From the human T2T-CHM13v2.0 reference genome, Homo sapiens, in NCBI RefSeq assembly GCF_009914755.1, contig NC_060939.1: a stretch of DNA of 64,000 nt. One strand, 5' to 3'. This document shows positions 47,644-50,600 of this stretch, piece after piece. Every line of letters begins with the position of its first letter. Within the stretch, counting starts at the first letter, position 1. A program made the position numbers and the translations under genes. The notes beneath the pieces were generated by a model. It was given only the letters and a program-made list of their open reading frames with translations. It was not told the DNA's origin and ran no database searches.

Positions 47644-50600
47644 TTATCTCCTTCTTCTTGGCAGCCAAGCCCAACAAAATAATGGCACACAGCAGTTGCT
47701 GCCCAAGCCTGGGTGCTCCTGGTGGTCCTGCACGATCGGCTGTGCAGTAGGCTTGTCAAGGAGAGGATCCTCCCTGGCCTCTCCTTGGGCAGAGGAGGTG
47801 AGGGTCACCTCACGAAGATCTTTGGAGAGAGGGAGGCGGGGATCTGAGCACAGTGGGAGCCCCCCTCTTCCTGCCTACCCACCCCACCTGAGGGCTCTAC
47901 TCACCACCATGCTTGTCTGCAGCCCCAAGCTCCTGGGGGGCTGGGGCTCCTGGACCGGGCTCATCAGCAGAGTTGTGGGCAGCGGCCAGGAATTTTCTGT
48001 GCCCATTGTTGTAGTTGCTGTAAGCCGCAATACCATCTGCTGCAGCTCCAGCAGCTTCACCTGGAGGGAGGGGTGCTCAGCTGCCATGCCGCTGCCTGCG
48101 CCCACCCTCACACCCACCCCCACCCCCACCCCCACAGAGATGTTGCACACCCTACCTTCATCTCCTCCCTGAGCTCCAGCCTGATGGTGTCCTCCTCCCA
48201 GTGCTGCATCTTTGGCACGGCCCCCTGGTTCTGATAAAAGGTGATGGATTTTCCTGCGGGAGGACAGGGCTCAGATTCTGGGGCCCCTCTGATGGCTCTG
48301 TAGCTCCCCCTGCCGTGCCCTGGCCTCCCACTCACTGATGGCATCTCTCTTGCCAGTATTGAATGAAGCGAAGTTCTTGTTTTTTCACCAGCTCACTCAG
48401 GTCTGCCTTCTCCTTCAGGTGGTCCATAAAGCTGCTCTGGAGACAAAATATTGCAGTCACATCTCGGCAGCGACCTGCCCTCAGGTGGCATTTTCAAGTC
48501 ATGGAGAAGGCGGAGGTGAGTCCTGGCATGGGCCAGCTTCTCCGTGACTTCCTGCAGGGCCCAGTGGGTCTCCCCACTCACAGACTCGCCCCCAGGCCCT
48601 GGGGCTCCAGGGCCTCTGGCTGCCTCTGGCTCCTTCTGGGCCGAGGCCACCGGGTGAGCCAGGCGCTGGCAGCACACCCTCTGCTCTTTCACCTGCTCTT
48701 GTAACTGTGCCTGCTTCTCCTGGGCACTAGCTCCAGCGGACTTGAAAAATGCCACCTGAGGGCAAGATGTGAGCATTCTTCTAGGGGCATACACAGAAGA
48801 AATGGGGCAGAGAGGTGGAGCGCAGCCCCTTCCCTTGGGGCCTCAGAGAGTGCACCTGTTGGCCACAGGTGAAATGGAGTCTGACCACTGGCTCTCGGAA
48901 GGGGTGAGGGTCCAGAGAAATCAGAAGGCAGGGAAACGAAGAGCATAAAGGGGTCTTGGAGGGACCACAGAGAAAGGTGGCAAAATGGGTGCAGGGGGAG
49001 TCAGGCTCACCATGGCCTCCCTGCTCTCCAGGTCCTCTGGGACACTCGGCATGGGCCGAGGTGCCTCCTCCCCCTCACTGTCCAGATGTTCTCCTCCGTG
49101 TCCTGTGGGGGGTGGCCAGAGGGGTCTTCAGACAACCCAACAAGGGAGGTACTGTGGGCCCACCTCTACCTCCACCCTCACTGTGTAACCCTGAGCCAGC
49201 CCCTCCCCAGAGAGGAATGAGCTGTTGTTCTTTATTTTTACTTTTAAGAATCAAGATCTTGCTATTCCGCCCAGGCACACTCCCACTACTGGTCGATGTG
49301 GGAGTTCTGACCTGCTCCCTTTCTGACCTTGGCCAGTTCAGCCACCCTTAGGCAACTTGGTGACCGCCCGCTCACAGGAGGTCACCACACTGATGCCGAA
49401 CTTAGTGCAGGCACCCGGTCGGCATAATGACCAGCTGCTCTAAAGGTCTCTTCCAACTCCTCAATCCTATGCTGCTAGCAGTCCCCCCTTCCTCCTGGGG
49501 CTCTCTCCTCTTCCTCTGAGCGGTCTCCCGTACCTTCCCCAGGGAGAGCCATGAGGCTCAGCTGGGCCGTTAGCTGCTGGTTCTGCTGGCTGGCCGCTTC
49601 CAGGTGCTCCTAAGGGGCCAGGAAAGAGTGAGAAGGGATGGAGTTTGCCAGGTCGTCCCCCTCACAGCCCCATCCTCGGCAGCTCCCTCCCCTGGGTCTC
49701 CTGCAACTTTTGGCAGGCCATCTCGGCCACTGCTTTGCCCCAAGCTTCCTACTGCTGCAGCTGGTTCATTAGCTGGGTCTGTTGCAGTCACTGCCTGTAC
49801 AGCGCCTCCTTCTCACAGGTCAGCTGCTGATAGGCGGCCACCTGCTGCTGATAGGTGGCCACGTACTGCTGCAGGTGACCCAGGTAATGGTCTGGCTGCT
49901 GCTGCAGACTCTGAGCCTCTTGGCTCTTCAGCTCCACCTGCAGGAAGACCCTGGGTGTGAGGGCACGTGGTGGCTGGTTTCCAGATTCTGGGCCCATTAA
50001 TAGGGTAGCGAGGGCACTGTGGGGCTCTGTCAGCTACCCAGGCCCCTGTCCCCTTACTCCAGGCCTAAGTGACTGCCTCCCTTTCCTAGAACCCCATGCC
50101 TCCTTCCCCAGCCTCAAATCTCATACCCTCTTCTCATTTAATCCTCAGCACCTCTGTAAGGAAAATGCTAACTTCCCTTTGAAGTTAAAGAAACAGAGAC
50201 TTAGAGATGCAAAGTACTTGAATGGTGACCAGTGGAACCGAGGCTGGAATCCAGTTTCAATCTAAGGAGTCTTTTTGTTTTGTTTTCAGACAAGAGTGTC
50301 ACTCTGTGGCCCAGGCTGGAGTGCAGTGGTGCAATCTCAGCTCACTGCAACCTCCACCTCCTGGGTTGAAGCAATTCTCGTGCCTCAGCCTCCCGAGTAG
50401 GTGGAATTACAGGCATGCGCCACAATGCCCTGCTAATTTTTTTTTTTTTTAATTTTAGTAGAGATGAGGTTTTACCACATTGGCCAGGTTGATCTCAAAC
50501 TCCCGACCTCAAGTGATTCTTCTGCCTCAGCCTCCCAAAGTGCTGGGATTATAGGCATGAGCCACTGCACCTGGTATAAGGAGCCTGTTATAGCACTGTC

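What the first reader, a model, noticed from the sequence alone, without database searches (positions are those of the whole stretch)
48457..48772. Inverted repeat that could mask the acceptor of a donor-less golgin exon
Seen: 48476-48500 (TGCCCTCAGGTGGCATTTTCAAGTC) is the reverse complement of 48739-48764 except for one bulged base, and 48457-48464 pairs with 48765-48772 after an 11-nt bulge. The upstream arm spans exactly the pyrimidine tract, AG (48756-48757) and first 17 nt of the VAFFKS exon; the other arm ends about 20 nt from the next acceptor (48437). Inference: a 33-bp pre-mRNA stem loops out this exon, whose donor is lost, and so preserves the 632-aa frame; it may be a structural splicing switch or an ADAR substrate.
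Basis: partly seen in the sequence, partly recalled or inferred. Interest (0 to 1): 0.75.

Follow-up and report, generated by a model that had tools for sequence, protein, structure and literature searches.

The report
Replication-error hairpin around a dead exon
A real 33-base-pair inverted repeat brackets a defunct golgin exon, and it is best read as the scar of one DNA-copying error that flipped the exon's exit splice signal, not as a proven splicing switch.

Summary
Arms 48739-48772 and 48457-48500 pair as 25 + 8 bp, with one bulged U and an 11-nt bulge (dG -53.1 kcal/mol). Only 2 perfect inverted repeats of 19 nt or more with a short spacer exist in the 64-kb window.

Alignment of 33 human paralogous loci explains the origin. 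In exactly 18 chr15 GOLGA8-type copies, 46 nt of ancestral sequence are replaced by 57 nt (48476-48532). The lost sequence is the exon's GT donor plus the first half of a short intron. The new 57 nt are reverse-complement copies of the exon end and donor, fused to the acceptor and exon start. Each of the three junctions shows 3-5 nt of microhomology.

This is the signature of a replication template switch. One event inverted the donor and created the stem. The copies taken as GOLGA2 and GOLGA6, two chr15 97-99 Mb copies and two 32 Mb copies all lack it.

Skipping keeps the frame, and using the orphan acceptor would give a premature stop. Whether the stem actually masks that acceptor is untested. 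There is no covariation, and conservation of the arms is only borderline. I rate this an instructive new instance of a known mutation class, of moderate interest.

The parts
48765..48772 (-). 5' outer helix, 8 nt, in the intron upstream of the old acceptor. It pairs with 48457-48464.
   Evidence: duplex. In one search, A at 48768 is derived in the 18-copy clade (C in all 12 other aligned copies) and turns a 7/8 match into 8/8.
48739..48764 (-). 5' inner arm, 26 nt: pyrimidine tract, AG at 48757-48756 and the first 17 nt of the pseudo-exon. This is the template of the inverted copy.
   Evidence: 25/25 identity to the reverse complement of 48476-48500, with one gap in the T run.
48533..48755 (-). 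Pseudo-exon, homologous to a 219-nt coding exon in the chr9 copy taken as GOLGA2. It is not in the annotated GOLGA8O mRNA.
   Evidence: translation. PF15070, E 1.8e-11, profile positions 349-424 of 520; the chr9 exon gives E 6.8e-21; the frame is open in 15 of 18 copies.
48576..48581 (-). Internal GTGAGT, a cryptic donor candidate. An exon 48755-48582 would be 174 nt and in frame.
   Evidence: Read. GTGAGT in 18 of 18 clade copies and in L019/L020; GTGTGT in the other 10 aligned copies, including the chr9 and 15q24 ones.
48537..48550 (-). Retained forward copy of the exon's 3' end. It is the left arm of an inner inverted repeat.
   Evidence: I4: 14 nt, 93% complementary to 48496-48509; inner hairpin -23.3 kcal/mol, z -2.64.
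48496..48532 (-). Inverted donor piece: reverse complement of the ancestral exon end, GT donor and first intron bases. The former GTGAGT now reads on the + strand at 48516-48521.
   Evidence: 32 of 36 identical to the forward donor region of L019 and L020, with a 4-nt gap. BLAST hits in opposite orientation to L019, L020, L031 and L032 (E 2.6e-7 to 3.7e-8).
48476..48500 (-). 3' inner arm: inverted copy of the acceptor plus exon start. It shares GACTT with the donor piece and GGGCA with the resuming intron.
   Evidence: the 38-nt junction string is found at exactly 18 places in the genome, all with 0 mismatches.
48465..48475 (-). 11-nt bulge of ancestral intron sequence between the inner and outer helices.
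48457..48464 (-). 3' outer helix, ancestral intron sequence. A48457 lies in a TGAC motif 20 nt before the used AG, so it is a plausible branch point.
   Evidence: The branch-point reading is my inference from the yUnAy consensus and was not tested.
48336..48436 (-). Next annotated exon, acceptor AG at 48438-48437. It would carry the premature TGA at 48395-48393 if the pseudo-exon acceptor were used without a donor.
   Evidence: Hub table.
49011..49102 (-). Upstream annotated exon. It ends in phase 0 and is spliced directly to 48436.
   Evidence: Hub table; hand sum of CDS parts gives 1368 nt up to 49011.

Best explanation
The inverted repeat is the footprint of one replication template-switch type rearrangement. 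It happened in the common ancestor of 18 GOLGA8-type copies on chr15.

The ancestral locus had the coding exon, a GT donor, and a short intron of about 80 nt leading to the next exon. In the rearranged lineage, copying reached the exon's last bases (to 48533) and jumped to the opposite strand about 23 nt ahead. It copied backwards through the donor into the exon end (48532-48496). It then jumped again at a shared AAGTC to the exon start and copied backwards through the acceptor (48500-48476). It rejoined the original template at a shared GGGCA.

An equivalent history is a single '3-1-2-4' switch that copied the whole exon in reverse, followed by loss of about 195 nt between the two AAGTC repeats.

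Shown: the donor is inverted, and a 25-bp complement of the acceptor now lies 238 nt downstream. Pre-existing complementarity adds an 8-bp outer helix.

Inferred: the exon is skipped mainly because it has no donor. The stem is a by-product that may also hide the orphan acceptor.
For: (1) One search aligns 30 paralogous loci. All 12 loci outside the clade keep exon end, G(T/G) donor and G-rich short intron. All 18 clade copies have the replacement.

(2): the reverse complement of the novel segment splits into two pieces. One is an acceptor piece, 25/25 identical to the copy's own acceptor. The other is a donor piece, 32/36 identical to the forward donor region of L019/L020.

(3): the two-piece reverse-complement score against L020 is 81. 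200 shuffles give 31.3 +/- 3.4 (maximum 41; 0 of 200 reach 81). The forward-orientation score is 35. A forward global alignment gives only 28 identities in 58 columns.

(4) Read, the junctions carry microhomologies of TGG (against ancestral CCA on the other strand), AAGTC and GGGCA.

(5): the junction string occurs at 18 places genome-wide, all with 0 mismatches, and 0 control hits.

(6): the 18 copies form one clade (support 1.000 and 0.975), so one event suffices.

(7): the ancestral-type sequences already had weak complementarity here (-19.1 to -27.5 kcal/mol in 12 of 12), the quasi-palindrome context in which such switches are described (PMC5453318, passages read).

(8) PMC5453318 describes event '3-1-2-4' as creating an inverted repeat separated by an inverted spacer. 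That is the inner structure seen here (I4).
Against: A single four-point event copies one contiguous fragment. Here two pieces are needed, so either a double switch or a later deletion of about 195 nt must be added.

Ancestral states come from human paralogues, not from orthologues in other primates.

The donor piece differs from the best proxy at 4 of 36 positions plus a 4-nt gap.

There are hints that the stem is more than a passive scar:
- Arms show 3 variable columns in 67 nt, against 128 in 841 for the region.
- All three variants leave the duplex energy unchanged or better: L010 T>C is absorbed as the bulge, and the two A>G changes in L011 coincide with a re-paired outer part of the duplex, -55.7 against -53.1 kcal/mol.
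- Two substitutions derived in the clade, 48768 C>A and 48741 C>G, both increase pairing.

No expression data were seen, so 'skipped because donor-less' rests on the RefSeq models in the hub table. As far as that table shows, none of the 4 GOLGA8O transcripts uses the pseudo-exon.
Confidence: 0.75

Rival explanations
1. Functional mask. Whatever its origin, the 33-bp stem is needed to keep the orphan acceptor at 48756 silent and to loop out the pseudo-exon. The upstream donor at 49010 then pairs with the acceptor at 48437 and the 632-aa frame is kept. The stem has been maintained or improved for that reason.
For: The acceptor is intact in 18 of 18 copies and identical to that of L019/L020. Using it without a donor gives a TGA after 120 codons, upstream of three further junctions, so the product is a likely NMD target by the established 50-55-nt rule. 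A cryptic GTGAGT exists at 48581-48576. The stem is predicted in the MFE and centroid structures. The acceptor's main predicted partner is the 3' arm in 18 of 18 copies (offsets +260 to +273). Duplex energy is kept at -53.1 or better in 18 of 18. Arm variation is low, and two derived substitutions improve pairing. PMC8052449 (passages read) reports that complementary regions suppress looped-out exons and obstruct cryptic or inactive splice sites.
Against: There is no covariation. The conservation signal is weak: 5.3% of 3056 equally spaced 34-nt window pairs are as invariant, and a 70-nt invariant run (48745-48676) lies mostly outside the stem. Predicted acceptor accessibility overlaps between groups: 0.04-0.21 in the 18 copies against 0.17-0.47 in the other 12. 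The outer helix covers the probable branch point of the acceptor that is actually used, whereas such structures tend to avoid branch points (PMC8052449). Template switching can maintain or perfect hairpins without selection (PMC5453318, Discussion passage). The same exon looks disabled without any stem in the 15q24 copies and in L031/L032.
Confidence: 0.25
2. ADAR substrate: the intramolecular duplex is edited A-to-I in the pre-mRNA.
For: The only support is the length and stability of the duplex, 25 + 8 bp at -53.1 kcal/mol. PMC8052449 reports enrichment of editing sites in complementary regions.
Against: No editing data were available. One search found 2 papers holding GOLGA8, RNA editing and ADAR; I saw only the listing, and nothing there concerns this site. 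The ~315-nt palindrome in the 3'UTR (45427-45733) is a much longer duplex in the mature mRNA.
Confidence: 0.1
3. Stepwise origin: a micro-inversion of the donor spacer and a separate inverted duplication of the acceptor piece, at different times.
For: Two reverse-complement pieces are needed. The donor piece has diverged more from its source (4 of 36 positions plus a gap) than the acceptor piece (0 of 25).
Against: The two pieces abut exactly and share a 5-nt overlap. All 18 copies carry both, and no human copy carries only one.
Confidence: 0.12
4. Chance complementarity, or the terminal repeats of an inserted transposon.
For: None beyond the existence of repeats in the region.
Against: The i.i.d. 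expectation is 9e-5 per window. Both arms derive from local sequence. Rfam finds nothing at the arms.
Confidence: 0.01

Closest known systems
Short template-switch mutations, four-point model, event type 3-1-2-4 (Loytynoja and Goldman 2017, PMC5453318; passages read)
   Same: A cluster of differences from the ancestral state is explained by a reverse-complement copy of nearby sequence. The result is an inverted repeat flanking an inverted spacer, and the flanks stay collinear. It arose in a pre-existing quasi-palindrome.
   Different: Two non-adjacent source pieces about 195 nt apart are needed, so a double switch or a later deletion must be added. The copied tract (57 nt, or about 250 nt in the one-switch version) is larger than the few tens of bases that paper aims at. 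The consequence here is loss of a splice donor.
Template switching that creates RNA hairpins (Monttinen and Loytynoja 2022, PMC8794818, abstract and introduction read; de novo miRNA preprint 10.1101/2023.04.19.537475, search listing only)
   Same: One DNA replication event yields a perfect RNA stem in a transcript. Later changes can perfect a stem without selection.
   Different: Those cases are stems in rRNA and miRNA genes. This is a long-range stem (238-nt loop) in a pre-mRNA, overlapping a splice acceptor.
[quoted passage not shown] 2021, PMC8052449; passages read)
   Same: The geometry matches: one arm lies on an inactive acceptor, the other lies downstream of the exon, and the exon sits in the loop.
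   Different: Those are defined by conservation across vertebrates, whereas this stem is confined to one primate paralogue clade. GOLGA8 does not occur in that paper's main text (0 occurrences); its supplementary tables were not opened. No experimental support exists here, and the outer helix overlaps a probable branch point.

Membership tests
Template-switch mutation (four-point model) | The derived segment is a reverse-complement copy of nearby ancestral sequence | tested here: met
   (25/25 and 32/36). (score 81 against shuffles at 31.3 +/- 3.4; 0 of 200 reach it).
Template-switch mutation (four-point model) | One contiguous 2->3 fragment explains the whole cluster | tested here: not met
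   two source pieces about 195 nt apart. A second switch or a later deletion between AAGTC repeats is required.
Template-switch mutation (four-point model) | The flanks (F1, F3) are collinear with the reference | tested here: met
   alignment is continuous on both sides of 48476-48532.
Template-switch mutation (four-point model) | The ancestral state is known from an outgroup | tested here: inconclusive
   15 human paralogous loci outside the clade (L019-L033) agree on the forward donor region. No orthologues from other species were available.
Splice-regulating long-range RNA structure (PCCR-like) | Complementary regions that bracket an exon or overlap a splice site | tested here: met
Splice-regulating long-range RNA structure (PCCR-like) | Conservation or compensatory change of the pairing | tested here: inconclusive
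   18 copies, 3 variable arm columns, all energy-neutral or better, with no double-sided change. Controls give 5.3% and 2.0%.
Splice-regulating long-range RNA structure (PCCR-like) | The duplex is seen in cells, and mutating it changes splicing | not testable with these tools
   No RNA-seq, probing or minigene data.
ADAR substrate | A-to-I sites recorded within the duplex | not tested
   No editing database was available. One search gave only a listing.

The most novel reading that the evidence does not exclude
One replication error did two jobs at once. It inverted the donor of a coding exon, and it laid a perfect complement of that exon's acceptor 238 nt downstream. The orphan acceptor was therefore clamped from the moment the donor died. 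The result was a clean, in-frame exon loss with no poison isoform. It was then tightened by two substitutions (48768 C>A, 48741 C>G) and carried into 18 copies of a core duplicon gene. This would be a self-silencing route to exon loss.
Probability: 0.22. Interest if true: 0.6.

Novelty: new member of a known kind. Interest (0 to 1): 0.4.

Why it matters
This is a clear, datable example of a local template switch removing an exon from a gene family without deleting it, while creating a stable pre-mRNA structure at the same time.

It is also a caution. A striking stem over a splice site can be a mutational scar, so its position alone is not evidence of evolved regulation.

The 38-nt junction is a unique marker of one clade of 18 copies within the unstable 15q11-q13 duplicons.

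The same exon appears to have been disabled in three different ways in the chr15 golgins: donor inversion, point mutations at both splice sites, and a 2.2-kb deletion. Its loss therefore looks tolerated or even favoured.

The masking hypothesis is cheap to test with a minigene.

Tried and rejected
- The search of earlier findings was not open.
- dN/dS of the pseudo-exon against flanking exons: 0.34-0.65 against the chr9 copy or L020, about 1 against the 15q24 copies. With 69 codons this cannot be told apart from the real exons, so it does not say when coding use stopped.
- Predicted acceptor accessibility: the ranges overlap between the clade and the outgroups, so it does not discriminate.
- Arm conservation: borderline, and confounded by a neighbouring 70-nt invariant run.
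- Rfam: no family at the stem. The only hits are an SRP fragment and mir-1233 in neighbouring introns.
- Literature: GOLGA8 with 'template switch' (6 papers), with GOLGA6, GOLGA2 and exon (4 papers), with 'inverted repeat' and splice (3 papers), and with RNA editing and ADAR (2 papers). The listings, and the passages I read in PMC2268926 and PMC6920530, say nothing about this intragenic repeat. Most of these papers I saw only as listings, and no supplements were opened.
- Chance and transposon origins were rejected.
- A DNA-level cruciform role was considered but not pursued, given a 25-bp arm with a 238-nt spacer.

Full report
**Observation.**
On the gene (minus) strand, 48764-48739 and 48500-48476 are reverse complements apart from one extra T. 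One search reports this as a 19-nt and a 10-nt perfect pair, offset by one base. Positions 48772-48765 pair with 48464-48457 across an 11-nt bulge. RNAduplex gives 25 + 8 bp at -53.1 kcal/mol.

The 361-nt fold puts this stem in both the MFE and the centroid structure, with z = -4.27 and 0 of 100 shuffles as stable. In the whole 64-kb window only two perfect inverted repeats of 19 nt or more with a spacer up to 400 nt exist, against an i.i.d. expectation of 9e-5.

- The 5' arm covers the pyrimidine tract, the AG at 48757-48756 and 17 exon bases.
- The 3' arm ends 20 nt before the used AG at 48438-48437.

**What the bracketed sequence is.**
Translating 48755 downward gives an open frame. It matches Pfam PF15070 (GOLGA2L5) at profile positions 349-424 of 520, E 1.8e-11. 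The homologous 219-nt exon of the chr9 copy, taken to be GOLGA2, matches with E 6.8e-21. So this is an ancestral coding exon that the GOLGA8O RefSeq model skips.

From the hub table, the CDS up to 49011 sums to 1368 nt (my hand sum), so skipping is frame-neutral. Using the 48756 acceptor with no donor reads 120 codons and stops at TGA 48395-48393, inside the next exon. An internal GTGAGT at 48581-48576 could define an in-frame 174-nt exon (read).

**Paralogues.**
A search of the window's own genome found 43 matching places; 40 of 45 candidates were scored. Thirty of them became loci and I aligned those. The other 13 matching places were not fetched.
- Eighteen chr15 copies are 95-100% identical (L001-L018).
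- Two copies lie at chr15 97.6 and 99.5 Mb (L019, L020).
- One lies on chr9 (L021).
- One lies on chr10 (L022).
- One lies at chr15 60.0 Mb (L023).
- Seven lie at chr15 71.9-75.8 Mb (L024-L030), taken to be the GOLGA6 family by position.

Three more loci were fetched later: L031 and L032 at chr15 32.33 and 32.19 Mb, and L033 at 88.05 Mb.

**Origin.**
In all 12 aligned copies outside the 18-copy group, the exon ends in a G(T/G) donor site. A short G-rich intron follows and runs into the next acceptor. L031-L033 show the same forward arrangement.

In all 18 copies, 46 nt of this sequence (as measured in L020) are replaced by 57 nt, 48532-48476. Read in reverse complement, those 57 nt are two pieces:
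- A piece 25/25 identical to the copy's own acceptor and exon start, with one gap in the T run.
- An abutting piece 32/36 identical to the forward exon end, donor and intron start of L019/L020, with a 4-nt gap.

BLAST independently reports that second piece as opposite-strand hits in L019, L020, L031 and L032.

A two-piece reverse-complement score against L020 is 81. 200 shuffles give 31.3 +/- 3.4 (maximum 41), and the forward orientation gives 35. The forward global alignment has only 28 identities in 58 columns.

The three junctions carry short shared strings of TGG, AAGTC and GGGCA (read). The former GTGAGT donor now reads on the + strand at 48516-48521.

A 14-nt forward copy of the exon end (48550-48537) faces its inverted copy (48509-48496) across the inverted donor. 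This forms an inner hairpin of -23.3 kcal/mol, z -2.64.

This is the pattern that Loytynoja and Goldman call a '3-1-2-4' template switch: an inverted repeat around an inverted spacer (PMC5453318, passages). Here it needs either a second jump or a later deletion of about 195 nt between the AAGTC repeats.

The ancestral-type sequences were already weakly complementary at this spot (-19.1 to -27.5 kcal/mol in 12 of 12). That is the quasi-palindrome setting described for such events.

**One event.**
The 38-nt junction string occurs at exactly 18 places in the genome, all with 0 mismatches although up to 3 were allowed, and the control gave 0 hits. With the rearranged columns masked, the 18 copies form one clade (FastTree support 1.000). 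Support is 0.975 when L031-L033 are added on a downstream segment. Trees were rooted on the chr9 copy by assumption.

**Does the stem do anything?**

*For a masking role:*
- The acceptor is intact in 18 of 18 copies.
- Using it would be costly.
- In an 841-nt partition-function fold, its main partner is the 3' arm in 18 of 18 copies.
- Duplex energy is -53.1 in 17 of 18 copies and -55.7 in L011.
- Only 3 of 67 arm columns vary among the 18 copies, against 128 of 841 for the region, and 0 of 33 vary in the 3' arm.
- The three variants are energy-neutral or better.
- Two clade-derived substitutions, 48768 C>A and 48741 C>G, both add pairs. The second may instead predate the switch and simply have been copied.

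*Against:*
- No position shows a two-sided change.
- 5.3% of 3056 equally spaced 34-nt window pairs, and 2.0% of 3082 26-nt pairs, are equally invariant.
- The longest invariant run (48745-48676, 70 nt) is mostly outside the stem.
- Predicted unpaired probability of the acceptor overlaps between groups: 0.04-0.21 against 0.17-0.47.
- The outer helix includes A48457 in a TGAC motif 20 nt before the AG that is actually used. That is a probable branch point (my inference), and long-range pairings tend to avoid branch points (PMC8052449, passages).
- Template switching can perfect stems without selection (PMC5453318, Discussion passage; PMC8794818, abstract).
- Donor loss alone is a sufficient reason for skipping.

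I therefore hold the origin as well supported and the masking role as open.

**Other routes to loss of the same exon.**
In 7 of 7 15q24 copies the ancestral CAG acceptor reads CAA. In 5 of those 7 the donor GT reads GG. Whether they use other splice sites was not tested.

L031 and L032 carry a deletion of about 2.2 kb relative to this window (50834-48647). It removes two exons and the 5' half of this exon, and their donor reads GG. They lack both arms. By recall these are probably GOLGA8A and GOLGA8B.

**Literature.**
No paper found or 37 describes this repeat. I saw search listings for most of them, and read passages in PMC2268926, PMC6920530, PMC5453318 and PMC8052449 and the abstract and introduction of PMC8794818.

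[quoted passage not shown] The age of this event relative to that split is unknown. Antonacci et al. 2014 was seen only as a reference and was not read.

**Verdict.**
The best explanation is a template-switch scar that killed the donor and made the stem in one stroke.

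Noticed in passing
window 48254-48335 (-): The whole 82-nt intron after exon 48336-48436 matches Rfam mir-1233 (90.8 bits, gathering score 87). It is not in the hub's gene table. Of 8 loci scanned, L012, L031, L017, L032, L033 and L020 score above the gathering score (91-110 bits). The chr9 copy (80.3) and a 15q24 copy (73.1) fall below it.
   Followed up: partly
window 45427-45733 (+): A palindromic element of about 315 nt lies in the GOLGA8O 3'UTR, with perfect 39-nt termini and about 80% self-complementarity. 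It was found only beside golgin paralogues on chr15, chr10 and chrY, plus one place at chr2 24.27 Mb. In the mature mRNA it is a far longer potential duplex than the finding's stem.
   Followed up: partly
L024-L030, column of window 48756: The ancestral acceptor CAG reads CAA in 7 of 7 15q24 copies, and the donor GT reads GG in 5 of 7. The frame is open in 4 of 7. The same exon is disabled by point mutations in a sister family.
   Followed up: partly
L031, L032 (chr15 32.33 and 32.19 Mb): These copies are collinear with window 52439-50835 and then 48646-47887. That is a deletion of about 2.2 kb that removes exons 49534-49609 and 49011-49102 and the 5' half of the pseudo-exon. The donor region is in forward orientation but reads GG.
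   Followed up: partly
window 48336-48436 and downstream: Exon 48336-48436 is the most variable part among the 18 copies, with 22 variable columns in 101 nt. Downstream of it the clade splits into two groups about 13% apart, although they differ by only about 4-5% over the upstream 841 nt. This could reflect gene conversion from other paralogues or fast protein evolution.
   Followed up: no
window 49260-49433 (-); L021 2259-2415: The 7SL-like fragment (RN7SL539P) in the upstream intron is also present at the same relative place in 6 of the 8 loci scanned: the chr9, 15q24, L012, L017, L020 and L033 copies. It therefore predates the family's expansion.
   Followed up: no
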